Positions 1 through 38,007 of a DNA stretch of 64,000 nucleotides are shown one piece after another. Made by a program: the position numbers and the translations under genes. Under the pieces are notes generated by a model, which had not been told where the DNA came from, searched no databases, and saw only the letters and a program-made list of their open reading frames with translations. The number at the start of each line of letters is the position of its first letter. The first letter of the stretch is position 1. The DNA is from Strigamia acuminata (taxonomy: Eukaryota): assembly GCA_949358305.1 (NCBI GenBank), contig OX442314.1, positions 12,710,001-12,774,000 of the forward strand, given 5' to 3'.

Positions 1-297
1 TGCGGTGATATTTTAAAATATTTTGAAAAGTATCCATTTTGTTTGGTGACTACGTCATAACACTGGAATCTGTCAAGATTACGGTTCCACGAACTTGATG
101 ATTTCCACCAATCTCGGACGAGATTGGACTCTCGCGAGACTAGCGTTGATACTTGACCAATCAGAGAGGTGTATCGAAGTACCCATACTTCCTTTCGAAC
201 TAGTGTGACCACTGCTTCGTTTGCGATCCTCCTGAACGTTTGCAACTTCATCGTTATCTCTCAGACTTAGGAAATTTTCTTAGTTTTAAGTTTAGTT

Positions 298-2547
298 ATG
301 ACTAATAACCAGCATCACATGAACACCCGTGGTAAGGAAAGAACTTGTTTGACCGGTGGAATGAATCTATCCGGGTTTGTACCTGTTCCTAATGGAATTG
401 AAGAAGTGGGAAACCACGCGGTCCATAATGGCGTTTCAAATGAAACAGCCGGACCATCTGGAGAGAATAGGGCTCCACGAGAACCTACTCCGCCTGGAGA
501 AGAGGAATGCATTCCTGAAGGTTCTCATTTAGGCCGAGGCGGTCTATTATTTTGTCAGGATCACGGTTTGAACCCAAACCAATTTAGATCTTTGACTGAA
601 GTGTTAGATTTTGTACACGCGCAACGTGCTACGTCGGAGCAACCTAATTCCCCAGCCAGCCAAAGATTAAATAATTTTAGTCCCACTCCTTCGACGCCTA
701 TTTCTAGATATAGAAATAAAAATGCACAACCTCCTCGTCAAGATCAGTCGAATTTGACACCAGGAGATTTTAATCGTGCTTTCCAACAACGATTACGAGC
801 GAATAACTTCGCTCGCAACCAACAAAGAGGATTTACAAATCCAGAGAACTTTGAGAATACGTTCAACAGAGCGAATTTGGGTCCGCCTAATATGGCCAAC
901 CCTAATCCAAGTTTTCCAAACGGATCAAATAGTTGTCCGAATCTCGCTGGAAATTTGAACCCAAATTCAGGTGCGACAAGAGGTCCAAACCGCCGTTTTG
1001 ACCCAAATTCCAGATTTGCAAACAATTCTAGTCCAGCACCTAACATGCAAAGGGGTTATCCAGTTCCTCCGAACTCGAATAACCTAAATAATCCGAACGA
1101 TTTAAATAATCCTTCTACTGGAACTCCAGGAAATTCAAATAACTATTTGAATCGGGGTACGCCAGGTAATTCGAACTATCGTCCAAATTTTGGTAATCAA
1201 GAAAGTTCGCACAACCGTCCGAATTTTAACAATCGAGATAATTCTAATAGTCATTCGAATTATGGGAACCAAGGTAATTCGAATAACCATTCGAATTTTG
1301 GTAACCACAGCAGGTCAAATCAAGGAGGGTCGAATAATTTCAACCCTAATAGTGGTGGCTCAAGTCAAAATAACTCGAGTCAACCAAAAAATAATGGCGG
1401 GTCGTCAAACGACAACTCGCGCCCCCCTAGTAGTTTTGGAATGACGGCTGATGACCTCGCGTCAATTGCCACAACCATGCACAAATTAATGCAGGCTGGA
1501 AAAAGTTCCGCCACTGTCCCTCAAACTAACAGTTTGAAACCCCCAGATATCCCTGTATTCTCAGGAAAAGCAGAAGAAAGCGAACGCTTTCTCAATATTG
1601 TAAAAAATGTCGCTTTTCTGCGAAACATGTCACTCGATGACATGCTTGTTAAAGGCGTTGCTGGTTATCTAACCGAGCAAGCGCATGGTTGGTTTCATGA
1701 ACGAAGAGAAGATTTTATATCTTGGGAAGTATTTGAACAGGCGTTCAAAGAACGATTTGTAGCCACTCGACAAGAGCGGACGAACCAACTAACTAAGTTG
1801 AAACAACTGGAAACAGAAAGTCTTTACGACTTTATGCACAAATATTACCAGTTATGGATATTACAAGACAGTCTTGATGCAAAAGGGGCTGGTTGTCTTT
1901 TTATCGGGAGTGTAACTCCTGCTAATGATTTGCTTTTACATACGCAAGGCATAGCGGATTTACCTCTGACAGAGATTTATTCCGTTATAACGAAAAATAA
2001 AGGCTTGTACAGTCGTACAGCTAATGGAGCAAGGGAAAATATCTCCAATCCAGTTGTTTTCCCACCTCGGAAAACTGACACTCGTCCTCAGCCGAAGACA
2101 AATGCTAAATCTTTAACTTTGGATTCACAAGAACAACTTAATATTTGTGAAGAAGAGTTACCAGAGGAATGCGAGGCCGTCTATTTAATAAATGGAGTAG
2201 TAGATCAGACCAGACGTGGTCAATTAGTTTGTTACCACTGTAAGAAACCAGGACACATGCGTCGAGAATGTCCAGATTTAAAACCACGTGCAAAGTTCAA
2301 CTCTGAAGAGTTGCCAAAACGAAGTACGCCAGATTCCCCGACTGTGGATCCTACTTCTAAACGTCCTAATAACAGATGGATAACTCAAGAAGTGTTGGAT
2401 GCAACACTGGATGCTAAACTTGATGCGAAATTAAATACTTTTGAAAATAAGTTACAAACTTCGCTGACTAACTCATTGGCAGAAATGGTCAAGACTTTGA
2501 TCAAGCCCGAATCTGCTGATTCAAGTGCGACTAGTTCAAAAAACTAG
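298..2547 (+). CDS. gag: Gag of gypsy element A (long Asn/Pro/Gly-rich N-terminal region, capsid-like core, zinc knuckle)
   Basis: 749-aa ORF; retrotransposon-gag-like core (FSGKAEE...LTEQAHGWF...SWEVFEQAFKERF...LKQLETES) and CCHC knuckle CYHCKKPGHMRREC. Confidence 0.92.
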   Translation: MTNNQHHMNTRGKERTCLTGGMNLSGFVPVPNGIEEVGNHAVHNGVSNETAGPSGENRAPREPTPPGEEECIPEGSHLGRGGLLFCQDHGLNPNQFRSLTEVLDFVHAQRATSEQPNSPASQRLNNFSPTPSTPISRYRNKNAQPPRQDQSNLTPGDFNRAFQQRLRANNFARNQQRGFTNPENFENTFNRANLGPPNMANPNPSFPNGSNSCPNLAGNLNPNSGATRGPNRRFDPNSRFANNSSPAPNMQRGYPVPPNSNNLNNPNDLNNPSTGTPGNSNNYLNRGTPGNSNYRPNFGNQESSHNRPNFNNRDNSNSHSNYGNQGNSNNHSNFGNHSRSNQGGSNNFNPNSGGSSQNNSSQPKNNGGSSNDNSRPPSSFGMTADDLASIATTMHKLMQAGKSSATVPQTNSLKPPDIPVFSGKAEESERFLNIVKNVAFLRNMSLDDMLVKGVAGYLTEQAHGWFHERREDFISWEVFEQAFKERFVATRQERTNQLTKLKQLETESLYDFMHKYYQLWILQDSLDAKGAGCLFIGSVTPANDLLLHTQGIADLPLTEIYSVITKNKGLYSRTANGARENISNPVVFPPRKTDTRPQPKTNAKSLTLDSQEQLNICEEELPEECEAVYLINGVVDQTRRGQLVCYHCKKPGHMRRECPDLKPRAKFNSEELPKRSTPDSPTVDPTSKRPNNRWITQEVLDATLDAKLDAKLNTFENKLQTSLTNSLAEMVKTLIKPESADSSATSSKN

Positions 2548-2578
2548 ATCCGGGGGACGAAGGTTTATTCCATCCCCC
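2538..2578 (+). promoter_or_regulatory. -1 programmed ribosomal frameshift signal (gag-pol, element A)
   Basis: A AAA AAC heptamer at 2538-2544 in gag frame, 7-nt spacer, then stem GGGGGA (2552-2557) / TCCCCC (2573-2578). Pol is in the -1 frame, which is open from the heptamer onward. Confidence 0.85.
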
Positions 2579-2582
2579 AGAA

Positions 2583-5500
2583 GTGGCTAATGCTACGTCG
2601 GAATCTTTGTTTATGGATGTAGACACAACTTGTCTTGAAGTAGCCACTAGTCATAGTGGCGGAGTAGAGGAAAATCTGCAAGAAATGACAGAACAATTAA
2701 AAAATCTGACATTGTTTCCACACAAGTGCTACACGAAGAAATTCTGTAGACTCCGCCGACTCAACAGAGTCATAGGTGGTAATAATTTGCACAATATTAC
2801 TTTGGGTAATAATAAAGATGATCCTCGAATGAAGATCACAATTGGTGGGCTCACCTACAACGCGCTCATGGATACAGGAGCATCTCAATGTTACATTGGG
2901 GAACAACTCTTGTCTGAAACTCAGGCTTTGCCAGAATTTTTGCAAGAAGCCCCTAGAAATATGTTGGTTAACGCTGTAGGCGTAGCACACAAGCCTGTCG
3001 GACAAATAACTTTGTGCGTGCAATGGGCTGATGAATTTACACCAATGAATTTCATCGTTTTAGCAAAACGAGTTTGTGGCTTGATACTTGGTCACAATTT
3101 CATGCGCAGACAGAAAATTAGTCCGCATCCACATTTACAAGAGTTCTCTTGTGCAGATAAACCTAATTGGTCCGCTCCTTATGAATCGGAAGAAGCCAAT
3201 TTGGCCCTCGCCCCGTTGAATCGAATTACTTTCGATTATTTAGGACTGTCGTCCACTCTCAACTCAATTGAGTTAACAGACACTCCTGTGTTGACTTGGG
3301 ATGAAAAATTAGTTGAGGAGAGCGACTGCACTCCGGAGCAAAGATTAGCACTTCGCGAAGTGGTTAAATCGATATCGAATGTATTTCGTGATCAAGTTGG
3401 GTGCACTAACGTGACCCAGCATCGTATTAAGTTCAAAGAAGGGCATTCATTGCCCAAAATGCAGTATAGAATGTATAACCCGGCCAAGAGAGCCATTATG
3501 ACCAAACTAGCTGCAGAATTGGAACAGGATGGACTCATTGAAAAGGCCAAGGGGCCCTTCATAAGTCATCCCGTCATTGTTGCGAAGCCTGACGGCTCGT
3601 ATAGGATGTGCATTGACTACCGGTGGCTAAATGCCATCACCGAAGTCGAAGTAATACAAATGCCAAGTATTGACCTTTTATTGCATAATACTGGTCCTGC
3701 TAGGTATTTTACGTCAATTGACCTTGTCAAAGGTTACTACCAAGTCGAGATGTGTAAAGAAGATCGACCAAAGACGGCATTTTACACGCCAAATGGTCCA
3801 TATCAGTTTGTGCGAATGCCGTTTGGCCTTTGCAATGCGCCTTGTACTTTCCAGCGTCTGATGGAAGGCATTTTAGGCTCAGCTTTGCAAGACTACGCGT
3901 TAGTTTATTTGGATGACGTAATTGTGTATTCAGATAATTGGGATGATCATCTCAAACACGTTCGAGATGTTCTAGAAAGGCTTAACCAAGCCAACATGAC
4001 AATAAATAAAGCGAAATCTCGTTTTGGGCGTACAGAATTAAAATTCTTGGGCCACTGGATTAAACCCGAAGGTCTCTTCGGTGATCCCGATAAAATATCG
4101 GCGATTATGAAATTTCCCACCCCCACGTGTGCTAAAGACATTCAGCGCTTTCACGGCATGACTAACTTCTTCAGGAAGTTTGTTCCAAATCACGGAACTA
4201 TTGCCGCACCATACACACGTATGATGAATGAGAAAACTCCATTTGAATGGGGAGATGAGCAGACAGAAGCTTTTAATAAAATTAAAGAGCTACTTTGTGG
4301 TGACAATTGTCTACACAAACCAGATATGACTTTACCATTTGTTGTCATGACTGACGCTTCACATGAAGGCTTAGGAGCTGTCCTTTGCCAAGACGTCGAT
4401 ATATTCGATGAAAAGAAGCAGAAAAACATTTCTGTACCCAAACCTGTAGCTTATGCAAGCAGAGTTTTACGTGGAGCGGAGAAGCGTTATACAACGCCGG
4501 AACTCGAATGTCTCGCAGTTGTGTGGGCTATTGATCGATTTAAACCATATCTCGAATATGGTACATTCACTTTAGAGTCAGATGCAGAAGCACTGAAATG
4601 GTTGATGCGAACGCCTGAACCATCTGGGAAATTTGGCCGATGGGCCTTAAGAATCCAATGTGGAAATTTTAAAATTGTTTTTCGAAAAGGTGCTGCTAAC
4701 CAAGTTGCAGATGCACTTTCTAGAGCCCCACTAACAGAGGAAGACATTCCTCTTCGAGATCATGTGGAACCTGTCGAAATTAAACAATACTGGCCTGAGT
4801 GGGACGGAAATCCTTCTGTTTCATTAAATCGTGCCCCAGAAAAACGAGAATATTTGGCTAGTGTGCGTTCCTATTTTTCTGAAAATTCTAAAGAATGTTC
4901 TGAAGAAAAGGAGGGGGAGGAAGTACAAGAAACCTTGTACAGTGCGTTGACTGAAGTACTTAAAGAAGTCCCTCCTACAAGGAGAGAAATAATAAATGCT
5001 CAATTACTAGATAATGAATGCAAACGCATTCGAGAATATTTATTGAATAACAAGGTTGTTGGGATACCACAATCTGAAATAAAAGAATGGAAAAACAAAG
5101 TCAAAAATTATTGTTTAGACAAAAAAGAAGTTGATGGTGATCAAATGATCATCTATTTTAACCCTTCATTCGAAGAGGAATTAAACGATTCGGGAAATGG
5201 CTTTAAAGCCGTTGTACCCAGTGCACTTGTAAAGCGAGTACTCTTCGCTTGTCATGGCCACCCCCTAAGCGGTCACGCTGGGATGAGTAAGACGCTTGAG
5301 AAAACGCGTTTAATATATTTCTGGCCTGGTATGAGTAGAAGTGTCAGGAACTACGTCAAAAGCTGCACGCACTGTGCTCAGTACAAGCCTATTCAACAGA
5401 AAAGGCACGCAGCTCCTTACACGCCACACAACATGACCAATCCTTGGGAATGTATTAATATGGACTTGATGGGCCCAAAACCCGCGGGAAGGTCCCAAAA

Positions 5501-6809
5501 CCAGTATATTTTTGTCATTATTGACAATTGTACCAAGTTCGTTGAAATTAAGGCTTTGACAAAAGCCACGAGCGCTAACTGCGTTCAAGAATTAAGATCT
5601 GTTACAAACAGATGGGGACACCCCAAAAAGATTGTGAGCGATAACGGAAAACAATTTGTTTCCGATATTTACAATGAGTATTGCGAAATGTACAACATTC
5701 GCCCGTCTCATACGAGCACGTATCATGCTCAGGCGAACCCGACAGAGCGAGCCAATAGAGATATAAAGACGATGCTGGCCCTGTACACAGATGTGCACAC
5801 GCAATGGCCGCGTTATTTAGACGAATTTGCATTCGCAATGCGAAATAATGTTTCGGCAGCAACGGGCTCAAGCCCGATGTTACTGAACACCGGACGAATC
5901 GTAACATTACCTTTCGACCCAAGGATTATTAAACATGCCAATCCATTTGACAAAGAAAATCCAGAAAAATATGTCAGAGTATTATTAGATATATTACGCA
6001 GATCGCATCAAGAGATGCATCGCAGAATTCAATTGAATTTTGAACGACATAGAAAAATACACGAACAAAAGTTCGTAATTACGGAGTTCGAAGTTGGAGA
6101 TTTAGTTTGGAAACAAACTCACATTCTCTCGTGCGCAGATAAAAATATCTCCGCTGGATTTGCCGAGAAGAGAGATGGTCCGTGGGAAATTACTAAAGTA
6201 CTTCCTGGCGGAGCGTATAAATTACGCAAATTAGCTGATGGTTCAATTGAAAAATCAGTGAATATTAAAGCGTTGTACCCCTATACTCCGTCGTACCCGA
6301 TCGAGACTTGGAAAGTAGGACAAAAGTCCGCCTCCTACTCGCCTCAAGAAAATCCTAAATGGATGGACGAAAGTAATCAACTTCCGGATGCTGAAGAAAT
6401 GGAATTAATTCCTGAAACTTCTTCAGAAATTCCAATGGAATTATCCGACTCAACTTCGGTGCAAATTGACAAATCTGCGCCCATTAAGTCTAAACATAGA
6501 CATAGACAACGATTAACTGCTATGGAAAGGAAAGCGGCGTTAAAAAGAGGCGAAGTTCCAAAGAAACCGCCTCGAAAACCCCGCAAACCCCAACCGATAG
6601 TTCCACGAACTAGCACTCGTCCACGACGAGAACGAAAACCAAATCCTAAATATGCAGATGAAAATTTCGTGCGAAACATCACTGTAGTATTTAAAAAAAC
6701 CATACCAACAACGAGGAAAAGCCTCAAAGTTCTGTTGGAATTGATAAGTTTTATTCAAAACTTGAAGACTGTAATTATTTACATGTCAGACAGGTGTAGT
6801 GATTTATAA
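2583..6809 (+). CDS. pol: Pol polyprotein of element A (protease, RT, RNase H, integrase); real entry probably by frameshift at ~2544
   Basis: ALMDTGAS protease, YLDD RT, VMTDAS...ELECLAVVWA RNase H, H-H-CTHC zinc finger, MDLMGP / SDNGKQF / TERANR integrase core; no internal stops. Confidence 0.96.
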   Translation: MANATSESLFMDVDTTCLEVATSHSGGVEENLQEMTEQLKNLTLFPHKCYTKKFCRLRRLNRVIGGNNLHNITLGNNKDDPRMKITIGGLTYNALMDTGASQCYIGEQLLSETQALPEFLQEAPRNMLVNAVGVAHKPVGQITLCVQWADEFTPMNFIVLAKRVCGLILGHNFMRRQKISPHPHLQEFSCADKPNWSAPYESEEANLALAPLNRITFDYLGLSSTLNSIELTDTPVLTWDEKLVEESDCTPEQRLALREVVKSISNVFRDQVGCTNVTQHRIKFKEGHSLPKMQYRMYNPAKRAIMTKLAAELEQDGLIEKAKGPFISHPVIVAKPDGSYRMCIDYRWLNAITEVEVIQMPSIDLLLHNTGPARYFTSIDLVKGYYQVEMCKEDRPKTAFYTPNGPYQFVRMPFGLCNAPCTFQRLMEGILGSALQDYALVYLDDVIVYSDNWDDHLKHVRDVLERLNQANMTINKAKSRFGRTELKFLGHWIKPEGLFGDPDKISAIMKFPTPTCAKDIQRFHGMTNFFRKFVPNHGTIAAPYTRMMNEKTPFEWGDEQTEAFNKIKELLCGDNCLHKPDMTLPFVVMTDASHEGLGAVLCQDVDIFDEKKQKNISVPKPVAYASRVLRGAEKRYTTPELECLAVVWAIDRFKPYLEYGTFTLESDAEALKWLMRTPEPSGKFGRWALRIQCGNFKIVFRKGAANQVADALSRAPLTEEDIPLRDHVEPVEIKQYWPEWDGNPSVSLNRAPEKREYLASVRSYFSENSKECSEEKEGEEVQETLYSALTEVLKEVPPTRREIINAQLLDNECKRIREYLLNNKVVGIPQSEIKEWKNKVKNYCLDKKEVDGDQMIIYFNPSFEEELNDSGNGFKAVVPSALVKRVLFACHGHPLSGHAGMSKTLEKTRLIYFWPGMSRSVRNYVKSCTHCAQYKPIQQKRHAAPYTPHNMTNPWECINMDLMGPKPAGRSQNQYIFVIIDNCTKFVEIKALTKATSANCVQELRSVTNRWGHPKKIVSDNGKQFVSDIYNEYCEMYNIRPSHTSTYHAQANPTERANRDIKTMLALYTDVHTQWPRYLDEFAFAMRNNVSAATGSSPMLLNTGRIVTLPFDPRIIKHANPFDKENPEKYVRVLLDILRRSHQEMHRRIQLNFERHRKIHEQKFVITEFEVGDLVWKQTHILSCADKNISAGFAEKRDGPWEITKVLPGGAYKLRKLADGSIEKSVNIKALYPYTPSYPIETWKVGQKSASYSPQENPKWMDESNQLPDAEEMELIPETSSEIPMELSDSTSVQIDKSAPIKSKHRHRQRLTAMERKAALKRGEVPKKPPRKPRKPQPIVPRTSTRPRRERKPNPKYADENFVRNITVVFKKTIPTTRKSLKVLLELISFIQNLKTVIIYMSDRCSDL

Positions 6810-7795
6810 TCTCAACACCGGGGGACAAGATATTACGATATTTATCGAAATTTGTATTAAAATATGAATTTGTTGCGATAAGTCAAAATATTCGATAGAA
6901 TATTTTATTATGTGGTCAGATTTATATGTATTTTAATTAAAATACAGAGAATTACTTTGAAAAGTGATAATCTCGCGTAATTACGAAGGTACGAGACTTA
7001 CGAGGTGTGATTAAACCTCGAACCCGACAATTAATAGGGAATAAAATTCCCAGGGTTCATTGCACACAAACACTTCGTAAAAAAACACGGATACTAGTGA
7101 CTTCGTCCCTTCGACCCGTCTTCATTTTTCGACTCGAGATTTCCACGCTAATTCAATTAGCGACTTCAGCAAGGAAAACAAGCTTCAACAGTAAGTAGTT
7201 TTCAAATATATTCTTTGACCAAAGAATTGAAAAAATTGTTTGCAACAATTGAAAATATCGGCGTCCCGATAAAAGTTAAAAAATTCACGTGTATTATAAG
7301 CGTGAATCGGCATTAAATCACTCTGGAAGTTTAGCTATTCAGTCGAATAGTTGGGTTAAATTTAATAATTATTTATTAAGTTTAAGTACGTGGGCACTAA
7401 TTATTTAAATCAAGTCGCGGTCGAGGCTTGCATAAATTATTTAGCGGTGAATTTTCGATTTGAGATATTCATTAGACTAAGTGTTAATTAATTAATACGA
7501 AAAGTTATCTTTGATACTCGGAAGTTGGATTAAATAGTTTAAAGAAACTAAGGGGATTTTTCTTTTGAAAATTCAACAAGTTGCGATTTTCGATGAAAAA
7601 TCGCTGTCAGGCGAGTCCATTCTCGTGTCATAAACACAAGGGGAATGTGACTCATTAGTGTCACGTGTTAGGGGTTATAAATAACTCGAGCTGTGTATTT
7701 TTCGTTGCGAACAATACGTTTTAATTCTTTGGACTCAAGGAATGATTATTTAGAGTGGAATTATTTTTAATAAAATAATTTATTTGCGTCTGCAG

Positions 7796-9316
7796 ATGGG
7801 AGGTGGTAAACACCGCTCAAAACGGAGTCATCGACGACACCGTCATGAAAGCTCGTCCAGCTCGTCCACCTCGTCTAGTGACGAACAACGCCGTTCAGCG
7901 GAACGTGCTTACATGAGGGCCCAACCGATACCGACGGCGCCCGCCTCGATGTACGCCCTGACGCCGCTGCAACTCGCGACGCTAAATTGGCTCAGTGTCC
8001 ATCCAGACGGATTTCCGCTCGATTTGAATACGATGATGCAGGCCCCGTCCACTTCTGCTCAGCCAACCGTTTATGAGTCGGCGCAAATGGCCCCGTTGGC
8101 CCAGGTGGCGTATCCGCCCGCGAACGTTATCAACGTCCCGTTGGCCCCGCATTCGCCAGAATTTCGGCCGCCAACTGCAAGCGTGGCGCCCACCGTCGCC
8201 AACACGTCGAATGCGACTGCACCGACTGTGACGGGACAATCAGTGTCGGTTACGCATCTTCCTGCTGGTGCTGAGTCTTCTGCATCAGAATATGGATGGA
8301 ACGAGCCGCCACCGGGCGCTCTGCGTTATTCGGAGCCTGTTTCTCGCAACCGCGAGTACAGAGCGGCCAATAAAGCGAAAAAGAAGGATGAGAAGGCCCG
8401 CCTGCGCAAGGAGCAGTGCGAACGAGACATGGCAGCCGGAATACCTCACGATAACATCGTGACGGACCAAGCCACGGAGACGATATGCCCATTTTGCGTC
8501 GGCTGTGGGTGGTGCTGCGGTGCATCCGCAGGTTCTTCGCTTATGCGTTGTCCAAACTGCCGTGGAAGGAAAACGCGCCCGCGTTCGGAGCCGTGGCGCA
8601 AGGAGGTTCAGCCCCACGTGGTGAAAGGCATTAAGCCTAACGAGAAGCGATGTTGGGCTCACTGCCCCAAGTGCCGATTGTTTTTGAACAGCCGTGGCGA
8701 AGCGGTTTACATCGACCCGCGCTTCCTCACCTGGGCCCGCGCTGAAGCCAACGCCGGCGTAAGAGTCGAACTCCTTCGACAATCACCGCCGCCGTCCGAG
8801 GACTCCGAAGTTTCGACTGAAACTGTCCAAGCCGTCGAGAGCGCCGGAAGCGAGGTCATGGAAGAATTCGTTCGACCCAGAACGATGTCGCGTGGACGAG
8901 GCTGTCTGACGCTCGACCGAGCAAGAGAAATCGCCAAGGTTCAACGAACCAATATCTTGGCACGAGGGCGAGCTCGTAAGCTTCAACAGGCCGTAGAAGC
9001 ACCGTCTAAACCCGTGGAGGATCCTCCAGCGGTCATAACTGACGTGTCGAGCGCTCCTATCGCGTCTAAGTCCGAGACTTCGGACGACGCTCAGTTTGAA
9101 GACGCCGAAGAGCTGCTTTCCGTCGTCGATTTCGTGGCAGAGTTGCTCGAGGATCTGCCGTTCCCACCTCCGAGCCCAGAGGAGATTGAAGCGCCGGAGG
9201 AAGCCGTGTTTTCCGCCGTCTCGACAGAGGCGACTGAAGAGTCGGATTTCCTGACTTCTGCCGAAGTCGAGAAACCAGAAGTGAAGGAACCGACTGAAGT
9301 CGAAAAGAAGGATTAA
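7796..9316 (+). CDS. ORF3 of element A: 506-aa protein of unknown function (basic/Ser-rich N-terminus, Cys-rich putative zinc-binding centre, acidic C-terminus); not env-like
   Basis: Long intact GC-rich ORF between pol and the PPT with AT-rich flanks. ATG at 7796 directly follows TTTGCGTCTGCAG. Motifs CPFCVGCGWCC, CPNC, HCPKC. No signal peptide or TM segment visible. Confidence 0.8.
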   Translation: MGGGKHRSKRSHRRHRHESSSSSSTSSSDEQRRSAERAYMRAQPIPTAPASMYALTPLQLATLNWLSVHPDGFPLDLNTMMQAPSTSAQPTVYESAQMAPLAQVAYPPANVINVPLAPHSPEFRPPTASVAPTVANTSNATAPTVTGQSVSVTHLPAGAESSASEYGWNEPPPGALRYSEPVSRNREYRAANKAKKKDEKARLRKEQCERDMAAGIPHDNIVTDQATETICPFCVGCGWCCGASAGSSLMRCPNCRGRKTRPRSEPWRKEVQPHVVKGIKPNEKRCWAHCPKCRLFLNSRGEAVYIDPRFLTWARAEANAGVRVELLRQSPPPSEDSEVSTETVQAVESAGSEVMEEFVRPRTMSRGRGCLTLDRAREIAKVQRTNILARGRARKLQQAVEAPSKPVEDPPAVITDVSSAPIASKSETSDDAQFEDAEELLSVVDFVAELLEDLPFPPPSPEEIEAPEEAVFSAVSTEATEESDFLTSAEVEKPEVKEPTEVEKKD

Positions 9317-10058
9317 AAGGGACAAATTAACATTCGTTATTTTTCCGAGTGGATATTTTTGACTAAAATAATCCAAGTGTTTTGTTGCGTTTTTTGCAAT
9401 TACGAAATATTCTCATGAGTGTTGTGTTTGTTTGGTTTCAAGATTTTGAACTAATCATTAAATACTCGAACGAGTATAGTTTAATTTTAAAATTGGATTC
9501 AATTTAATTTGTTTTGTTTTTCGAATTCAATTTGGATGTTTATTTGAATTAATCATATTAATATCTGTGTGATTGTTTAGTTTATTTTTCATAATTATTT
9601 GTGAAAATTGTGTTTGTTTTTGCTTTGATCAAAGCGTTGAAAAATTTCAAGTTGAAATTCGTTAATTTTTTATGACAATCGTAATAAAAAATTAGTAGTT
9701 TAGATTTTCGATAAATAAAGTTTGCATAAATTTATTTTTATTGATTATCTTGTTGATTAATAAGCTATGAATAAGTTTATTTGACGAAGAAATAAAATTT
9801 CTATCGAAATTTGTATTTTCTCGAACATGTATCCATGTTCGGACGAGTCCATTTCCGTCGCTTAGCAACCGGGAGTTGCGCCGTGCAGAGAAGCCGATTA
9901 GTCTAATCGGGTGACGAAGTTTCTGAAAGAAATAACATGATTAAGTTAATAAAAAATACTTACCAAGTGGATTAATTCGATAGAATTAGGTGAACATTCT
10001 TATCCATTAAGAATGACAATCGAGAGTTAGTAAACTCTATGTTTGTCACCGGGGGATG

Positions 10059-11645
10059 TGTGATGATTACAAATCAATAGTTGTCAATGTTCACCATAGA
10101 TGGCGCTGTTTAACCAACGCGCGTATTTCAAACTCGGTTAAAAACTAAAAAGTGTGATAAATAATTATTTAGACACGGTGAATAAAATATAACTATTTTA
10201 TTCGATATAAATTAAGTATTAATTACTTGATGATGTTGATTCTATCGAATCAATGTCCACTTTACTTACCTGTCGAAGGGAACCAATCGGACCCTTCCGG
10301 ACCCCAACTGGGCCCATCTGGACATAGTCACATATTAGGTCCGGACTAGTGACCCACGAATCCGCCGATTCGTACGCTGATTGGCTGTCGCCAATCTAGT
10401 AGTTCTACAGAACTATATAAGCATCAGTTTTCCACTTCCCCAAGGCTTGGCTTGATAACTGTAAATGTCTGTAATTGAATTGTTGTTATCGTTTGATTTC
10501 ACTTTCTTATCGACACATCAGGCCTCCTCAGCTCTCAATGGATATGTAGACTTACTATCTCGTTATTGCTTGTTGTAAGGCCCATCTGGGAAGGCTAACC
10601 TTGTAGACATGTTAACAACATGAAATGGCCCCGTAGTGTTAGCCAGCTGTTCTAAGGGACAGTAGGATTTCATACGGTGGCATAGTGTAGTGCTCATGCA
10701 CGGGATTGACTAACCCGTTAAATAAATGTCAAACTATATGATCGGTGATAGTCGCATCTATCTGAGCGATTCCTCGGACGAGGGTCAGACGCTCTGCCAA
10801 GGGCATGTGTGCGGGAGGTCCCACCCGAGCACGAAACAAACACGGACAAATGCTATTCCAGGGCGAATTGCGTATCATAGGTCCTTCCGTACTTTAGTGG
10901 TCGGTGAATGGCATATTTAAAGGCACACTACGCCGGGTTGGTAGCCCGTGAGAATTGTCCGTGAAGACATTTCGTTAAACAATTACTCAGGTATTGGTAA
11001 TCCTGGAATTGGTAAATCCATAGGAATGTTCACCCGGTGGTTGGTACCACCGATAGCGATGTAAAGCGTACAAACAAATACTCGGCGCCTGATCACGAGA
11101 TCTTGTCGTCGTAAGGCGTGCTGGCGGATGGAGTCTCAACAACTCCCGCGACGTTCTCTCAATTGTCGTGACGGTCCCCGCCCAATCATTATTTATATAA
11201 CAATTCATTTGTTATATTACTTTAATCACTTTACTTTTATTCATTTGGAACATGGAATATTCTGCCGAATATTCCGATTAATGCGAAGGACTCTTCGCAT
11301 ATTTAGATATTCGAGCTGCGGACCAAATACGTCTCCGTAGCGATATTTGTGACGATGCCGCAAGTCAGCCGTATCCCTCTGGCTTCGCCCGGATCCTCAA
11401 CCAGTTGATGCCGCCCGTTTACACGCGTCAAGAACCCATTTACTGTTATCATTAATATTTAGTAATAAATATGTTAAGTCACACTAAAACTGTAAGTTAT
11501 TTCTATTCGATCACATATTCATGTTTGTAAGGGCTTCCGTAGCTTATCTCGGTTAGGTTGTTGCTAAACTTAGCAACGTCTTGTATAAACCGAATTATCT
11601 ATCTTAAAAGGACTAATAAATTGGCCCAAAAGTAGAATCGTCACA
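10059..11645 (+). repeat. 3' LTR of element A (~1587 bp)
   Basis: Starts TGTGATGATT after PPT GGGGGA and ends AATCGTCACA (9/10 terminal inverted match); TATATAA near 10410. The partner LTR is not in the window, so the ends are unconfirmed by comparison. Confidence 0.78.
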
Positions 11646-12239
11646 ATGTGACAAAAATAAACAATGTAAACATATGTTAAATAAAGAAAAGGTGATTACA
11701 AAATTGGTGTTTTAAAATGGATTTGTTTACTTGGTGGCTCCGTGTTTCAAGGAGTTCGAGAAAGCCGTTTGGTTTTTATCTTCAACTGCAAATATGGATG
11801 CGCATATCGTCTTTGTTGGTCGAATGGTTGCGACCGATCGGTCTCAGTCTAGCGGTCCATCTGCCGACGAAATTCAACTTTGCATCAACAAACAAAGACA
11901 AATCAAACACAACGGCGCGAGTTCAGCGCGTGAGATTTCAAATTCATTTCATCGAGCAATGCGAGTTTCGCCTTTCATTTTCGAATGTCGGACGAAAAGG
12001 GCTAAGAGCCTTTCGGCTTCTTTTCAAAAAGAACACGAAATTAAATCAATTTGGTAAAATAATTTGGTAGCAGCAAATTGATTCAGGTATTTGCCGTCAT
12101 TTATTCTGAATTTAAAATAAAAGTGAGAAGTGAAATAGAATTTCTGTTTCTGTACACAACGACCAATCAATCAATCCATCGATTTCAAAGAACAAACAAT
12201 GGAGAAAGTTTGTGTTCACAACGTCCTTGGATGACAAAG

Positions 12240-13400
12240 AGAAAAACGACTTACGACGACGACGAGTTGCCTCGCTTATTCCGGTTCTTGTTGCCTGTCA
12301 AATTGAATTGTTGTCACGCATTTGCCCATCGTGCTGCCAAATGTTTTACCGCCCAACGTGTTCTCCAACGTGGTGCGCAAGATTCAGGAGGAGGCGCGCC
12401 GACATCCCTGTCGGCACTGCTCCTTCTGTACCATCATTCTGGACGCTAACCTCAAGATCTTCGGTGTCTCAATCAGGAATGTCTCAAAGTGACGTACAGG
12501 TGACGAAAAAAGAAAAAGGAATAAATAAAATGCTAATTTCGTTTGTAAATGAAGGTTTTGCTTGGAACTGAACCACCTCCCGCTGCGCGGCGACGCGATC
12601 GAGCCGAAACCTGAAGTGTATTTCCGCACGTACGTCGAGGACCAGATGACGGACGCGTTGGTGCGCACGTGTCCTCGGTGCAAGCGGCGCATCATCAAAA
12701 AACACGGCTGCAACTGGATGACGTGCACGTGCGGCCAAGTGTGTCGCGAGGCCATCAAGAACTATAAGCATTTCGAGAACGAAAAGTGAGTTAATGATTG
12801 ATGAGTCACAAAAGTTAATGAATCTCATTTCAACTCACTTGTCAGTTGTCCTCAATTCTCCAACGATGCGTCTGGAGGTGCAGGAGGCAAGAAGGAGCAG
12901 TGCGGACATGACTCGAGGTCCGGGATGTCGGCATGCTGGATCTCCTCCTGCTGAATCTGGCGCATCGATCTCATCGCAACTTAGCGGAAGGTGATTCGGT
13001 TCTATTTTTTTTTCACCTGCACGTCACTTTGAGACATTCCGGGTTCAGACAGCGAAAGATCTTGACGTTGGCGTCTGGCATGGTGGTCCAGGAGGAGCTG
13101 TGCGGACACCATTCGAGGTCCGGGATGTCGGCACGCTGGATCTCCCCCTGAATCTTGCGCATGACGTTGAAGAATAACTTGGGCGGAAAAACGTTCTGAA
13201 GCACGATCGGCGGGAACTCGCTCTCGCAGTACGGGTCGAGGCATGGGAACTCGTACTTGTCCTGGCCGATGCGCACCTCGGCATGGCGCCAAATGCAGGT
13301 TGTGCAGAACAAGTGGCCGAATGTAGCGACGAGCAAAGTTGGTGTCGCTCGGACGACAATGTTTCGTACGCCTCGTGCCGCGTCGACGTCTTCTACTCCG
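12240..13400. pseudogene. Scrambled fragments of an RNF216/TRIAD3-like RBR E3 ligase gene on both strands
   Basis: Minus ~13016-13336: GHLFCTTCIWRHAE...FPCLDPYC...LEWCPH...IFRCLNPECLKVTCR (RING1-IBR). Plus 12562-12786: NHLPLR...RTYVEDQMTDALVRTCPRCKRRIIKKHGCNWMTCTCG (RING2/Rcat). Degenerate duplicates at ~12240-12500 (+) and ~12860-12985 (-). A RING1 start lies separately at ~14880-14960 (-). Confidence 0.75.
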
Positions 13401-13863
13401 ACAACGTCTTTGTTATCAAATCAAATAAAGTCAAATGTTAAACGATATATGGATGGACTGCTTAGTTTACTAGACCTTTACTAACAAAACTGCTGCAAAA
13501 TTTAAAAGAGAGAAGAAATTGTGGATCTTTACATTACATCATCAGACGTGTGACAACCATAACACGTTGGGTGAAAATAAAACCGTTTGTCAACAGAAAT
13601 TGAAGAATTCAGATAAAATATCTCAATTTACAAATAAATATTCTAAACTAATGAGAAAAAAAAATATAGCTTATTTAACAAATGAAATAATAATAATAAT
13701 AAATAATAATACAATTTAAAAAAAAAATATTTTTAAACATAAGCATCGTCTTTTTAATCTGAATAAGAAAAAAATAAATAATAAAAAAGAATAAAAATTA
13801 ATACAATTTTTGCAATTTTCTTCTTTTTCAGCCTTCGTTTCAACGTTTCCTCCGCTTTTCTCT

Positions 13864-14283
13864 TCAGCTGGTTTCACGCTGCACGCGCTTCAACTCCTTT
13901 TCCAATCTCTCGTTTTCCTTCTTCATTTTATCGCCGCCAGATGGGCCTCTATCTCTCTCTCCGCTCCCGTTACTTTTAAACGTGAAAAACAATTCCCGGT
14001 TCGCTGTTTTCTCGCCTAAACAGACCGTGTCGCCATTTTTCAGTCCCGTGGCTCCGCGTGCCATCAATTTCACCTCATTAACATAAATTCCAGTCCTACT
14101 CTGTCGATTGTTCAAAAAAAAATCATGAAATGATCAATAACACGCATTCTATCGTACGACTACATTATTATCCGCCACGTGCCACGCATCCTTACGTCTG
14201 GTAAATATCGCGTGAATCCGTGACACACATGGCGAATAGATGGTGAAATCGGCGTCGACGGCCCAACCAATGGTAAACTGAGA
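13864..14283 (-). pseudogene. Two-exon FHA-domain fragment followed by a short coiled coil
   Basis: Manual translation: QFTIGWAVDADFTIYSPCVSRIHAIFTRRKDAWHVADNN | GT..AG intron 14163-14101 | SRTGIYVNEVKL...LKNGDTVCLG. This matches the FHA pattern (IGR, SRxHA, NGxxVN, LxxGDxIxLG); early stop at 13864. Confidence 0.72.
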
Positions 14284-17203
14284 TGCAAACAACTCGATTA
14301 AATTCATTAAAACTCAATAAACAACTAATTTATTTACCAAATCCTTATTTAGGGCGATTATTCTATCGACTACGTGTGTGGAAGCATCTGGGCGAGTGCT
14401 TTTCTTGTACGAAACTAAAAGTGCTCCCAATTCTATTTCCGGATTCATTTTCTAATTCAGCTGTACCTTTATTAACGTGTGGTAAAACCACCCGTGTAGG
14501 GACTTCGACGTCGTTTCGTATCATGCGCCTTTTACAGAAGACAGAAGAAACTATAGCAATCGCACAACCAATCACAACCGAGCAAACAATAAACACAAAC
14601 TTGCCACTTTGAAATTTCAAACGACCTGAATAACTGAATCAATTTGCTGCTATCAAATTAAATCAATAAAACCGCCGGTTTTCTTGATTTAATTTCGTGT
14701 TCTGAAGCCGAAAAGGGCCTTTTCGTCCGACATTCGAAAATGAAAGCCGAAACTTGCATGGCTCGATGAGATGAATTTGAAATTTCACGCGCTGAACTCG
14801 CGCTGTTGTGTTTGATTTGTCTTTGTTTATTGATACAAAGCTGAATTTCGTCGGCAGATGGACCGCTAGACGGAGATCGGAGCACTGGTGCATGTCTTGG
14901 ATGAGCAGTTCGTCCTCGGAGAAGCAATTGCACGTCATCAGTTCGTTCTTTTTTCCCGTCGTTGCAATTTTTATCTGGCGCTCTGTTTTTTTGTCCTTTT
15001 TTTTTAATTCTACAAAAGGAATTAAATGCTTTTCTTTAATTCGAGTAAATTGTGATTGTTAGCTAATCATTTATTAATTCATTTTAATATCGACCGTAAA
15101 AAATTTCTTTAGCATCCCAAGCCGAAACAAACATACACCAAACAATAAAAACAAACGGCCAATTAAGCTTAGTCCGCTCCAAACTTGGCCCGCCTTAAAC
15201 TAAATATCTCATTTCACTTACAACACAAGTCTATGACAAAACATAATACTATTATGTTTTATATAAAGTTTTTAAAAATGTTCCATAATTACTTCTATTA
15301 TGATAATAGAAGTAATTACGGAACATTTTTAAAAACTGTATATACGCAATGGCCTTATCACGAAGGCGTGGACTTGATTTATTTTTTGTCTTAAAAACTG
15401 CTGGTCATCGAATAGGATGAGCGGGCTGGCTAGTAGAGAAAATACAAAAATTTTAACTAAGTTTATATGATGATAGTTTTCCAGATGAGTGAAAATTTAG
15501 ATTTTATTTCCTGTCTAGAAAACTGTGTGAGTTTACACGGCGTTAGTTTACTTACGGTAATTACCCCTAATGCATTAACACAAAAACCAAAATGGCTGTC
15601 GATCTACTTCAATTCAAGCCTTAAACCAACCAAATTTAGCACGTGTAACTTGATCCAAAAGGAAGAAGTATTTGTAAAAACTCGAGTTCTTAGTAATAGC
15701 AGGGACGTGCGTGTTCGAGGGAAATGAGACGTTGAAGTGCGGAGAAGCCAACTTTCAGCAGGAGTTTTTGAGCGAATAACCCGCAACAGGAAGTCGGCGA
15801 TAAGTGTCATAAATTATGCTAAATTATCTTTTGTTCCCGGGAATATTGAAATGTAAATCCCAAGAAATTACAATAAACTTGTTCTCAACCTAAAAAAACA
15901 TGTTTTTATTGCTCGAATCCAGAAAGCTAGAAAATCAGTAATTATACAAAGTTTTAATCAAAATTAATGAAAATCGACTTTGCGAATCTTCATAGTATTA
16001 ACCTTTTTACACCCTGTGGTATCAGACTTACCCAGAACTATAACATTGGAACTTGAATTGATGTATAACGTGTGTAATGTTTGAGGGGCACTCAGGACCC
16101 ACTTGCTATTGGGCAAGCTGGCCCTATTGCCAGTCCGCCACTGCTTTGCGCTCATACTGGATGGATAGTTTCAGAAGGTTTAATATCACCGCAAATCCTC
16201 CAATAGAATGCGGGTGTGTGATCTAATTTCAAAATCCAGATTGTTTCTTCCTCCTATCATAAGAGAGACCCGCGCATTCTGAAAGGATCTTGCATGATTT
16301 CTGCGCAAAATCCCGCATTTTATTATTCCGTGTGCGATGCACAGAAGATTCAAGGGGATGTTTTAATTTTGTCCTCCGAATTGATACGAAAGAAAACGTT
16401 GAATTTCAAGCACCACAAAAATGAAGGAATTCTCCCACAATTCTTGAACCAATTTTGTAAATTTTATAAAGATAGAAAAACAAATAAAAACATAATAAAA
16501 AACACAAGAATACACGAAGACCATTCAATTTCCAAGAACAATAAAAAATAATACTCCGTAGTTAATTATTGCTTTTTGTTAAATTCCCTACACCCATACA
16601 GTAAATGGAATGCCGGTTTACAATACCAACTCTATTATGACCAGAGCTCTCTTTTAGTTTGACCCAGAGGTGACCACGAGGAGGTAGAGAGTTGGATTTT
16701 ACACCCCCTACTCAAATAACATAATATAACCAGCACACAAAAACCCGATATAAACACCATTTTGAGGCAAAACTTTAAAAATTCAAATGAAACATTAATT
16801 ATCCCTGGGATTTCCTAGATTTTGGAGGAGAATTAAATCGAATTGATCTTGATCACAAAAACAAAAAACACCACTGACTAGAGAAGAAAAAAAAATACAC
16901 AAGCTACAAAAAATATTCAAATTCAAACGAAAGTCCCTACAAAATGACAAAGAAACTTTGAAAAAGACAAAAACGTACAAGCAAAAAGTCATTTCCTAAG
17001 CCCATTGTAAACATTTTTTCAGAGTTGGATTAAGCCTAAAATGGAATGGAAACAAGAAATATTTACTATAATCAAACCATCGACTGAAAATACAATCCTA
17101 ATCCAGTTCCACAATATAATTCTCAATATAGCTTAATTCTGCTTAAACAACGGACGAAAACGAGTGAAATAGAATGAACAACGCAAACCCGCGACCGCTG
17201 CTA

Positions 17204-17718: not shown

Positions 17719-19008
17719 CTATGTCATGTATTCAAGATCAAGTTGAAGATGCAAATTTTGAACTTGAACATAATTTCTAATCTCATCACAAGCTGGTTTG
17801 TCCATACTATGGCAGTTAGAAATTAACAAATCATTTAGCAGATTCTTCATTGATACCAATTTAAAAACTGTTGCTGAACTTATTAAGTGACATTGATAAA
17901 TGCCCAAGATCGTGAGATTTTGCAATAAATTCATATCAATGAGCTTTGTGATCAAGTTATCGGAAAAAGATTGACATCTCAAAACGTGTAGACTATCTAA
18001 ATTAACGGAATTTCCAAGTAACATTTGCAAATCTTGTTCGGATATTGTGTTTTGTTGTTCACTCGGTCCTTCACAAATGTATAGTGTACGTAGATTTCTG
18101 AATGGAACCTGATTGGATACGGTTTTAAAATTGTAAGAACAAGTTGTTTTAACACAGATTGAACAACGGCTCAATTTTAAACTTTTTAACATTGGACAGA
18201 AAAAGCCGATTTGCTGAATATTGACTGGACCAATCTGATACAGTTCCAAGTTAGTTAGTCGTCCCATTGTTTTGGATAGTACTGATACAACTATTTCATT
18301 AAAGCAGTTTGTGAATGTAGGTAGCCAAAATTCAATCGTATATAAATTTGGAAATATTTGTGTGACCATGCTGAGATCGTCATCTGTCCACTCACGCAGA
18401 CTTATACTTTCGAGGGAATATGGGTTTAGCATTTTGTTGGATTTAAAATCTTGTTTTAGGAGTGGAAATAATTTGACATCACAATCTAATTTTCTTAGCA
18501 AATGCAGATTTTTTACAAGTTGTAAACATAAATTTGCCGTAACATTCGTTTCGCAAATGTTTAAATATTCAAGTTTCATATTGCTAGTAATCAGCTTGGC
18601 TAAAATCAAATCTGAGATCTCATCGTTTCTGTTCAAGTAAAGACGTTGTAGGTTGGGCAAATGTTTCACCAATCGTATTAAGCAGTCAGATGAAATTCCA
18701 AGGTATGCTAAATCTAGTTCTGCCAGGTTTTTACACACTTCGATAATTTTATCTACAACTTCGTGTATGTGCAGAGCGGAAAACCGGGCCAAATGACACA
18801 ATGATCGCGTGTCAGGACGAATAAATTCATCGGCATGCAAACGATGTTGAAATGCCGTTTTATCGTTCCGAACATAACGAACAACGCGTGGATATATCTT
18901 ATTAACCAATTGAGGTGGAAAGTTAATAAGGCGTATTTTGTCATAATGTGCGGCGATTGTGTTCAAACACAATTCTTCCAAACCCGATGCTGATTTTCTA
19001 CTTGGCAT
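17719..19008 (-). CDS. BC-box/LRR family paralogue 1 (429 aa), putative CRL2-type substrate receptor
   Basis: Intronless ORF; SGLEELCLNTI...FPPQLVNKIY, then ~9-10 LxxLxL repeats with Cys (FBXL/AMN1-like). Confidence 0.85.
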   Translation of the reverse strand: MPSRKSASGLEELCLNTIAAHYDKIRLINFPPQLVNKIYPRVVRYVRNDKTAFQHRLHADEFIRPDTRSLCHLARFSALHIHEVVDKIIEVCKNLAELDLAYLGISSDCLIRLVKHLPNLQRLYLNRNDEISDLILAKLITSNMKLEYLNICETNVTANLCLQLVKNLHLLRKLDCDVKLFPLLKQDFKSNKMLNPYSLESISLREWTDDDLSMVTQIFPNLYTIEFWLPTFTNCFNEIVVSVLSKTMGRLTNLELYQIGPVNIQQIGFFCPMLKSLKLSRCSICVKTTCSYNFKTVSNQVPFRNLRTLYICEGPSEQQNTISEQDLQMLLGNSVNLDSLHVLRCQSFSDNLITKLIDMNLLQNLTILGIYQCHLISSATVFKLVSMKNLLNDLLISNCHSMDKPACDEIRNYVQVQNLHLQLDLEYMT

Positions 19009-19522
19009 ATTAGATGGTCAGCCTTCAACGGAATGATTACTGATCCGTTAAGCATCGCTTAAATAGAACTTGTAAACGTACTGTGAAGTATTGCATATCA
19101 CATTACACTTGGGATAACGAAATGATCCGTGAAGCATCGCTTAAATAGAACTTGTAAACACACTATTGACGTTCAGTGACAATTGATTTCGTTCACCAAA
19201 CGCACACACCGTAATTAATTTAAATTTTATTTTGACCTTTTACTTTCAGATTAGTTAAAGATACAGACTGAAGCAAAAAATAATTTAGGCTGGGAATAAA
19301 AGTAATTTATTAAAATTGACAGTATTCTTTAACCAATTAAGTCAATAATAAAATCTACAATCACAAAAGGAAAGTTAACGAACCAGTAATCAATTAATTT
19401 AAACTAATGATTTTTATTTAAAAACAAAACAAAACAACGGGACCTATAGATCTAGACTAGATCATGATTGAACACTATTCGGTCAACCCAAGAACAGTTG
19501 ATTAGGTTTGGGTGACTTAAAG

Positions 19523-20980: not shown

Positions 20981-20983
20981 GTC

Positions 20984-23774: not shown

Positions 23775-23814
<40 letters not shown>
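20984..23814 (+). mobile_element. Non-LTR retrotransposon (APE+RT; L2/CR1-like), no ORF1 seen, (TAAA)n tail
   Basis: Intact ORF, ~30-bp 3' UTR and (TAAA)n tail at ~23777-23814; second partial copy at ~52096-52476. The 5' boundary is approximate and no TSD was recognised. Confidence 0.9.
21001..23745 (+). CDS. LINE ORF2: apurinic-type endonuclease + reverse transcriptase (914 aa)
   Basis: YLNARSL, ITETWL, GDFN, LIDQIF, LDH (APE); FRPISSL, KAFD, GVVQG...GPLLY, YVDD (RT). Confidence 0.93.
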   Translation: MITFNSRMTTRSCNKSFSLVYLNARSLLPKIDDLAGLANIHSPDLITITETWLSSDCPNDIIDIPGYSIVRSDRPSTGGGVAAYIKNSHSPSSIVTVQSEGIELLSCTLTNTNIALQIIVLYRPSTKPISHALELISDLIAPNTYIILAGDFNYNFLPQNPTNIINNFMSSFGLHPVIHAPTRITDTTSTLIDQIFVTKSITFSPCHLTDLDRLDHKVASISFSIPKPTVPRPPSRTNHYSFKNCNWDEVNKAITLIDWSPMLATLDPNAKLIIFYHEITNILAKFAPPKAKSRTKPKQWWTTELTTLQKRKTHAYRYRSTHPLNYKIARRHFKAMVKRNKRRAVMAPRNFWRLISTRTAAVELPNSPTALTDYAHFCDNPRNVTTSNYTETATPSPPNFLDFNYVTPADVYLAALRINLSSRHSHDRVPGIAIKKILPAIVLPLTNILNSIIDTSIYPTTWKHAVVTPIYKGGDKNSIKNFRPISSLSPLCKIADNTILMQIRPTLSRHSPSTQYGTRPGSSAQLLIASLYLDIIHCCDESKALHLAKTDVLKAFDTPPQHYVLDCLRNHGIGPRPIKLFASYFSDRTFHIANDLSQTDYPITRGVVQGTTTGPLLYNSAAAPVLSLPLQSRIRSYVDDNFLTQVAAANQELTALPRFAPDLTLLADWYSKHDMGLNQEKTSTLSFKRPSRGVVPYPTEQITVLGLILDPHLTFGPHIRHLTLFLTRSAYIVKHLRRVLSRTEMISYIKSKIYPVITYASSIWNSTARRFKFPLAKAYNAVIRNAFNRYGHNRITPVCNEFGILTLDNLLLLHDLSAIADVLRNADHPADAITEFYHSDVNTRTSRRHKFEITVERTTYLRKTFPHRCTTLWNDLPIDLRTTVFDCAASKCRFHCCHLHKRISKHLLDQQALS

Positions 23815-30100: not shown

Positions 30101-30136
30101 ATGATGATCATTCCACCGAATAATGACCATCTCGTC

Positions 30137-31441: not shown

Positions 31442-31485
31442 AGAATCCACATAAATTCTAAGCAAACAACTACTTTATATCACTA

Positions 31486-38005: not shown

Positions 38006-38007
38006 CG

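What the first reader, a model, noticed from the sequence alone, without database searches (positions are those of the whole stretch)
7796..9316. Gypsy element A carries an intact non-env third ORF with a Cys-rich putative zinc-binding core
Seen: in the position where errantiviruses carry env there is a 506-aa uninterrupted GC-rich ORF within AT-rich flanks. It has no signal peptide or TM anchor. It has a basic/Ser-rich N-terminus (MGGGKHRSKRSHRRHRH), a Cys cluster (CPFCVGCGWCC..CPNC..C..HCPKC) and an acidic tail. Known: additional non-env ORFs in animal LTR elements are poorly characterised, while some plant transposons encode anti-silencing proteins. Inference: an accessory nuclear or nucleic-acid-binding factor (trans-activator, RNA-export factor or anti-silencing protein), or captured cargo under selection.
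Basis: partly seen in the sequence, partly recalled or inferred. Interest (0 to 1): 0.8.

Follow-up and report, generated by a model that had tools for sequence, protein, structure and literature searches.

The report
Zinc-finger accessory gene in gypsy retrotransposon
A multi-copy family of jumping genes carries, where retroviruses keep their envelope gene, an extra gene kept intact by selection; its protein has no membrane anchor and a predicted zinc finger, and likely acts in the nucleus to switch on the element itself, as helper genes of complex retroviruses do.

Summary
Confirmed. [quoted passage not shown] It is a real family gene, not cargo of one copy. Of 40 listed differences (of 147) among other copies, 29 are synonymous, 11 change a residue and none makes a stop; about 29% synonymous is expected under neutrality. 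The only relatives found are four Strigamia maritima (centipede) gene models. Three of them join pol pieces to the same ORF, and the core (residues 183-312) is about as conserved (45-48% in two) as pol (39-50%). It is not env: no membrane segment, no env family hit. Weak leads point to a DnaJ/anti-TRAP-type zinc finger. The ATG directly follows a splice-acceptor-like TGCAG, as does the unrelated ORF3 of a second element in the window. Function is untested. Best guess is a trans-activator of the element (0.35), then a CERV/Rev-like RNA exporter (0.27) or a counter-defence factor (0.23). Non-env ORF3s are a known kind; I found no description of this protein family.

The parts
298..2547 (+). gag of element A (capsid-like domain, one CCHC knuckle)
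2538..2544 (+). A AAA AAC slippery heptamer before the gag stop, followed by a hairpin; likely -1 frameshift into pol (inferred)
2535..6809 (+). pol of element A (PR-RT-RH-IN), open
6816..6825 (+). first PPT-like word CACCGGGGGA, 6 nt after the pol stop; identical to the word before the 3' LTR
   Evidence: 2 matches in the window, 0.03 expected, 0 of 100 shuffles with 2
6826..7795 (+). AT-rich spacer; candidate internal promoter and intron; shares 11-16-nt words with the 3' UTR and LTR
7191..7196 (+). candidate splice donor GTAAGT (not above chance: present in 37% of spacer shuffles)
7791..7795 (+). splice-acceptor-like TGCAG after a T-rich tract, directly before the ORF3 ATG
7796..9316 (+). 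ORF3, 506 aa, non-env accessory gene
8342..8731 (+). conserved basic core, residues 183-312: predicted long helix, C208/H218, CxxC...CxxC (231-255) resembling DnaJ/anti-TRAP zinc fingers, CxxC (290-293)
9071..9313 (+). acidic tail, residues 426-506, with one hydrophobic stretch (about 439-456); 10 synonymous and 1 replacement among listed differences
10047..10058 (+). PPT before the 3' LTR
10059..11645 (+). 3' LTR of element A (ends inferred from PPT and inverted termini; TATA-like box near 10414)

Best explanation
ORF3 is a conserved non-envelope accessory gene of this gypsy family, kept by purifying selection, whose protein is predicted to bind zinc and likely works in the nucleus as a trans-activator of the element's own transcription. 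Shown: position inside the element, open frame, selection among copies, co-inheritance with pol, lack of env features. Inferred: a spliced or internally promoted message uses the acceptor just before the ATG; the basic, Ser-rich N-terminus brings the protein into the nucleus; the basic Cys/His core binds the element's DNA or nascent RNA; the acidic, hydrophobic tail recruits host coactivators. The element would then behave like a complex retrovirus (foamy-virus Tas logic).
For: Selection: 29 synonymous, 11 replacement, 0 stop among the 40 listed of 147 differences in run X3; expected synonymous share 0.25-0.30, pN/pS 0.12-0.16, p about 1e-8 or less. It is strongest in the core (9:1) and the acidic tail (10:1), weak in the linkers (6:4, 4:5). 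All 8 contig pieces shown (of 499) lie on ORF3 without gaps, some with 39-46 differences in about 230-245 nt. Of 12 indels shown (of 125), the one in ORF3 is 3 nt and the 11 outside are 1-2 nt. Co-inheritance: three S. maritima models hold pol pieces followed by an ORF3 relative, core identity 48%, 45% and 37% (the last over a longer stretch) against 39-50% for pol. Layout: basic N-terminus, Pro/Ala/Thr-rich linker, core with 28 K/R against 14 D/E, acidic tail. The word TATCGAA occurs 8 times in 3.6 kb of the element's non-coding parts, once in 8.0 kb of its coding parts and 8 times in the other 52 kb; spacer and 3' region share a 16-nt and a 12-nt word holding it. Tas binds response elements in both the internal and LTR promoters (PMC517496, abstract start).
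Against: No call tests location, zinc binding, DNA binding or activation. The motif was picked after looking, and a host factor could bind it (it resembles the insect DRE/BEAF word, recalled). DnaJ- and anti-TRAP-type fingers mostly bind proteins, not nucleic acids (own knowledge). The fold is unresolved: AlphaFold mean pLDDT 44 and 48. The zinc-finger leads are all below their cut-offs. The acidic hydrophobic tail is not aligned in the Strigamia models. No RNA run was available. Not every copy keeps the gene: one contig shows a 2-nt loss at 7854 and one low-depth contig in each of two runs of one study joins 7444 to 9706, skipping ORF3. The 40 rows were chosen by the tool for support, not at random.
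Confidence: 0.35

Rival explanations
1. ORF3 is a CERV/Rev-like factor: made from the spliced RNA, it would bind and export the unspliced genomic RNA so that Gag and Pol are made.
For: An acceptor inside the genome makes the full-length RNA intron-containing. Cer1 CERV is a 517-aa nuclear protein from a spliced mRNA, coded partly in the env position, with a Cys-rich loop needed for export (PMC10309623, passages and section 15). Gag and pol are AT-richer and fold more stably than shuffles (mean z -1.8) whereas ORF3 does not (-0.5). An NES-spaced motif lies at 447-456 in the selected tail.
Against: That NES spacing appears in 50% of shuffled ORF3 proteins and was not found at a matching place in the three Strigamia models. 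No CERV-like protein came up in the whole-library search. No Rfam match in 1-11700 and no single stand-out response element.
Confidence: 0.27
2. ORF3 is a counter-defence protein whose DnaJ/anti-TRAP-like finger would bind and block a host silencing or restriction factor (piRNA pathway, DNA methylation reader), as VANC, Bet or Vif do in other elements.
For: All 5 aligned members match Pfam Anti-TRAP weakly (best E 0.0066, 16.9 bits, cut-off 32); T1IU31 gives DnaJ E 0.052 and Atlas hits of 0.87 to anti-TRAP/DnaJ-named clusters. S. maritima methylates its transposons, Gypsy included (PMC6673714, passages). VANC acts through a short motif repeated in its own element (PMC6719617, passages).
Against: The core shows strong purifying selection rather than the fast change often seen in direct arms races (expectation from own knowledge). 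The host of the window is not known, so the Strigamia methylation data may not apply. CpG is not depleted in the element (o/e 1.0-1.3 in coding parts).
Confidence: 0.23
3. ORF3 is a captured host or transposon fragment that rides along without benefit.
For: Its GC content differs sharply from gag and pol, and the cassette is bracketed by two identical PPT-like words, as if added behind an older pol-PPT end; element C in the window has its PPT right after pol and no ORF3.
Against: Purifying selection among copies, conservation on a par with pol, and no host donor gene among 1.84 billion representatives. A captured origin is possible; neutrality now is not supported.
Confidence: 0.04
4. ORF3 is a highly diverged envelope or small fusogen.
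For: Env position and a splice acceptor before the ATG.
Against: No hydrophobic segment above 1.12, charged N-terminus, no env or fusion family in Pfam, no PDB sequence match at E up to 10. Errantivirus Env ectodomains are flanked by a signal peptide and a transmembrane segment (PMC13524379, passages). An unseen upstream exon could add a signal peptide but not an anchor.
Confidence: 0.02

Closest known systems
CERV of C. elegans Cer1 (PMC10309623; passages and section 15 read)
   Same: Gypsy element; non-env ORF between pol and 3' LTR; about 510 aa; Cys-rich candidate C4 finger with basic residues; lineage-restricted.
   Different: No detectable sequence relation. CERV shares 5' exons with gag and has three predicted folded domains; here there is one ~130-aa core in long low-complexity arms, and the two donor-like sites seen in gag (332, 2240) are out of phase with the ORF3 ATG. 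CERV's role is shown; this one's is not.
Foamy-virus Tas/Bel1 and other complex-retrovirus trans-activators (PMC517496, abstract start only; rest recalled)
   Same: Accessory gene 3' of pol; possible internal promoter; second PPT-like site; words shared between internal region and LTR side; basic and acidic segments.
   Different: No homology; host element is a Ty3/gypsy retrotransposon without env; internal promoter and binding are untested.
Non-env ORF3s of bdelloid rotifer LTR elements (PMC5408684, passages) and sense aORFs of plant elements (PMC7264820, passages)
   Same: Family-specific third ORF in the env position.
   Different: Those described are enzymes (DEDDy, GDSL), coiled-coil or membrane proteins; none in the passages read is a DnaJ-type zinc-finger protein.
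Anti-TRAP / DnaJ CxxCxGxG zinc finger (PF15777, PF00684)
   Same: Two CxxC pairs with following glycines 18 residues apart, preceded by a helix.
   Different: All scores are below family cut-offs; the glycine pattern is partial; extra conserved C208, H218, C290 and C293 could form a second site (inferred); no J-domain.

Membership tests
Ty3/gypsy (Metaviridae) LTR retrotransposon | gag with CCHC, pol in the order PR-RT-RH-IN | tested here: met
Ty3/gypsy (Metaviridae) LTR retrotransposon | PPT and LTR 3' of the coding region; paired LTRs and target duplication | tested here: inconclusive
   PPT and TG...CA unit found; 5' LTR is outside the window and no genome is held
Errantivirus env (F-type or gB-type) | signal peptide and transmembrane anchor around an ectodomain | tested here: not met
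   hydropathy maximum 1.12, charged N-terminus; dedicated predictors not available
Errantivirus env (F-type or gB-type) | sequence similarity to fusion glycoprotein families | tested here: not met
Non-env accessory ORF3 of LTR retrotransposons | present across the family and under purifying selection | tested here: met
Non-env accessory ORF3 of LTR retrotransposons | own spliced or subgenomic transcript | tested here: inconclusive
   TGCAG|ATG at both ORF3 starts in the window; 4 of 1029 plus-strand ATGs have it; no RNA data
Cer1 CERV family | sequence homology to CERV H, M and G domains | tested here: not met
   no nematode hit at E up to 0.001 among 1.84 billion representatives; no direct pairwise comparison made
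Cer1 CERV family | needed for export of unspliced genomic RNA | not testable with these tools
   bench test
Anti-TRAP / DnaJ CxxCxGxG zinc finger | Pfam gathering score | tested here: not met
   16.9 bits against 32 for PF15777; PF00684 E 4.7 in 1 of 5 members
Anti-TRAP / DnaJ CxxCxGxG zinc finger | same fold, one Zn held by four Cys | tested here: inconclusive
   four Cys invariant in 5 of 5; low-confidence model, anti-TRAP only at Foldseek E about 4; Atlas leads under 0.9
Retroviral trans-activator (Tas/Tat/Tax-like, by function) | binds the element's promoter or leader RNA and raises transcription | not testable with these tools
   bench test

The most novel reading that the evidence does not exclude
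An arthropod gypsy lineage without env has become a 'complex' retroelement: it encodes its own zinc-finger regulator from a separate transcription unit bracketed by two polypurine tracts, acting on short words shared by the internal spacer and the LTR side. A second, distant element in the same window has reached the same layout with an unrelated protein, suggesting that self-encoded regulators are a repeated solution in this host.
Probability: 0.3. Interest if true: 0.75.

Novelty: new variant of a known kind. Interest (0 to 1): 0.52.

Why it matters
Few non-env third genes of animal LTR retrotransposons have a known job; CERV was the only functionally tested one in the papers I read. This is a separate protein family with a small, well-delimited conserved core, a mapped set of candidate metal ligands and candidate target words, so regulator, exporter and counter-defence roles can be told apart with simple reporter and binding assays. 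If it is a trans-activator, complex-retrovirus-style self-regulation arose independently among invertebrate gypsy elements.

Tried and rejected
No genome is held for the window, so copies were seen only as contig pieces of public runs. No RNA holder was listed; this says nothing on expression. Word-indexed search with full ORF3 found nothing among 7994 candidates; profile searches returned only S. maritima models (3 of 7994 and 1 of 1783 candidates). The fourth hit (sparrow trichohyalin-like, E 2e-5, coiled-coil repeat) was dropped as compositional. Viral contigs gave no locus. The one metagenome locus, L001, is a bacterial DnaC/IstB-like ATPase gene (label recalled) sharing only a CxxC word and was rejected. 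ESM Atlas on the core gave no usable hit. PDB sequence search gave only a TMEM106B Cys fragment at E 1.1 and nothing for full ORF3. Foldseek gave nothing at E up to 0.001; VIA-align gave no Z of 5 or more and matched only the long helix. The viral-structure search and a homodimer model were not obtained, so oligomer state is open. PHROGs and NCBIfam gave nothing for ORF3. Rfam gave nothing. ORF3 of element A and of element B are unrelated by BLASTP (best E 0.28). The donor at 7191 and the NES-like motif are not above chance. Summed contig depth is of similar order over pol end, spacer and ORF3 but was not used as copy number. Assignment to the Osvaldo/Ulysses clade (long LTR, CCHC, frameshift; recalled) could not be checked. 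Paper searches found no description of this protein; subscription journals and Repbase are not covered, and no supplements were read (the repeat table of PMC4244043 may list the family).

Full report
Observation. The ORF is there as described: ATG at 7796, 506 codons, stop at 9314-9316. Chance does not give it; 2000 shuffles of its bases never reached more than 300 codons in any frame. It is GC-rich (0.58; third positions 0.60) between AT-rich flanks (0.33 and 0.29), while gag and pol are at 0.42. The best 19-residue hydropathy mean is 1.12 and sits on the Cys cluster, so there is no sign of a signal peptide or anchor (dedicated predictors were not available).

Setting. Upstream lie an open gag (capsid-like domain, CCHC) and, after an A AAA AAC heptamer and hairpin, an open pol with protease, RT, RNase H and integrase in gypsy order. 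Downstream lie a 0.7-kb AT-rich stretch, a PPT and a 1587-nt unit starting TGTGATGATT and ending AATCGTCACA, read as the 3' LTR. The 5' LTR is outside the window and no genome is held. The word CACCGGGGGA occurs twice in 64 kb, 6 nt after the pol stop and before the LTR (0.03 expected), so the ORF3 cassette is bracketed by two PPT-like sites. Element C in the same window has its PPT right after pol and no third gene. The ORF3 ATG follows a T-rich tract and TGCAG. Only 4 of 1029 plus-strand ATGs in the window follow TGCAG; two are inside pol with 7- and 9-codon frames, and two are the starts of ORF3 in element A and of the unrelated ORF3 in element B. This was noticed after the fact but makes a spliced message likely. 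The donor is unknown, so the true N-terminus could be longer.

Is it a family gene? Three public runs of one coded organism (two studies; one may be the source of the window) hold the region. Laid on 6400-11400, 7330, 2576 and 1284 contigs matched, spread from over 99% to under 90% identity, which points to a multi-copy family with diverged subfamilies. On ORF3 alone, run X3 showed 147 differences at 10% or more; of the 40 listed, 29 are synonymous, 11 replacements and none a stop, 26 at third positions, none on a conserved Cys or His codon. Neutral expectation is 25-30% synonymous, giving pN/pS 0.12-0.16. The core (9:1) and acidic tail (10:1) carry the signal; the linkers do not clearly (6:4, 4:5). 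All 8 pieces shown lie ungapped. The four indel rows are a 3-nt loss, a 2-nt loss in one contig, and a +1/-1 pair; one contig skips 189 nt in frame. One low-depth contig in each of two runs skips the whole gene. These are contig tables ranked by support, not a codon model on assembled copies.

Relatives. A full HMMER pass over 1.84 billion representatives gave 4 hits at E up to 0.001; three are S. maritima gene models (T1IMA5, T1IH97, T1IU31) and one a coiled-coil repeat protein that I dropped. Profile searches added only T1IRW1. T1IMA5, T1IH97 and T1IRW1 are automatic models that string pol pieces together with an ORF3 relative behind them. They show linkage, not real fusion. Their pol pieces are 39-50% identical to pol of A and 23-39% to pol of B; their ORF3 cores are 48% (120 aa), 45% (134 aa) and 37% (219 aa including linker) identical to ORF3. 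T1IH97 also has a basic, Ser-rich segment like the N-terminus. The gene has therefore travelled with this pol lineage over a long time. The host of the window is not known; a related arthropod is an inference.

The core. C208, H218, C231, C234, C252 and C255 are invariant in 5 of 5 aligned sequences, C290 and C293 in the 4 that reach them, C240 in 4 of 5; C237, C241, C286 and H289 are private to this family. The two central CxxC pairs resemble DnaJ/anti-TRAP fingers: Pfam Anti-TRAP weakly in 5 of 5 members (best E 0.0066, under cut-off), DnaJ at E 0.052 for T1IU31, Atlas neighbours at 0.87, anti-TRAP chains at Foldseek E about 4. These leads are weak and not independent. A second site from C208, H218, C290 and C293 is possible but only inferred. 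AlphaFold resolved little beyond a long helix at about residues 182-213, and fold searches were uninformative.

Mechanism. The layout (basic Ser-rich start, low-complexity linker, basic Cys/His core, selected acidic-hydrophobic tail) reads most simply as a nuclear regulator. A trans-activator is my first choice (0.35) because the acidic tail is under selection and because TATCGAA-containing words recur in the leader, the post-pol spacer, the 3' UTR and the LTR (8 in 3.6 kb against 8 in the other 52 kb), as response elements of foamy-virus Tas do in two promoters (PMC517496, abstract start). The motif was chosen after looking and may serve a host factor. A CERV/Rev-like exporter is close behind (0.27): CERV is the best-studied parallel (PMC10309623, passages and section 15), but the NES-like motif here is not above chance. 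A protein-binding counter-defence role (0.23) fits the finger type and the methylated transposons of S. maritima (PMC6673714, passages; VANC in PMC6719617, passages). Neutral cargo (0.04) and env (0.02) are largely excluded; the remainder covers other roles.

Known kinds and novelty. Non-env third ORFs are known in nematode Cer1, bdelloid elements (PMC5408684, passages) and plants (PMC7264820, passages). Four earlier unchecked notes of this scan describe other such genes in other genomes; none was returned by sequence for this protein, and I used them only as context. Errantivirus env is defined by signal peptide, ectodomain and anchor (PMC13524379, passages), which are not met. I also read passages of PMC11952523, PMC12440569, PMC4244043, PMC2774666 and PMC1142308 without finding this family; nine paper searches found no description, within a library that lacks most subscription journals and Repbase, and no supplements were read.

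Verdict. A real, selected, lineage-restricted accessory gene with an undescribed Cys/His core; new variant of a known kind; function open but directly testable. Interest 0.52.

Noticed in passing
window 37009-50530 (ORF3 at 46623-49490, +): A second gypsy element (pol 35% identical to A; LTRs identical over the 300 nt shown; 4-nt target duplication CATC) has its own unrelated 955-aa, GC-rich third ORF with no Pfam or NCBIfam hit. It also starts at TGCAG|ATG, and a 31-codon acidic ORF at 45729 ends at an in-phase donor-like site (45822). It may deserve its own study.
   Followed up: partly
window 54663-61061 (-): A third gypsy element has a single gag-pol frame, a PPT right after the pol stop and no third ORF; a useful simple-element control.
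   Followed up: partly
window 298-6809: Plus-strand RNA of gag and pol folds more stably than dinucleotide shuffles throughout (mean z about -1.8 over 109 windows), ORF3 does not (-0.5 over 26); strongest window in the LTR at 10141 (z -5.6).
   Followed up: partly
P0004 (UniRef T1IU31, S. maritima): A 132-aa protein with only the first half of the ORF3 core (39% over 80 aa) and no pol piece: a more distant family or a detached copy; context unknown.
   Followed up: partly
window 17719-36089, 50365-51794, 61243-64000: Cluster of at least eight paralogous leucine-rich-repeat genes on both strands, interleaved with retroelements.
   Followed up: no
window 12063-15058: Cys-rich fragments that look like RING-between-RING E3 ligase pieces (recalled resemblance, not tested).
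   Followed up: no
window 20974-23745 and 24207-25988: A LINE ORF2 (endonuclease, RT) and a copia-type RT frame.
   Followed up: no
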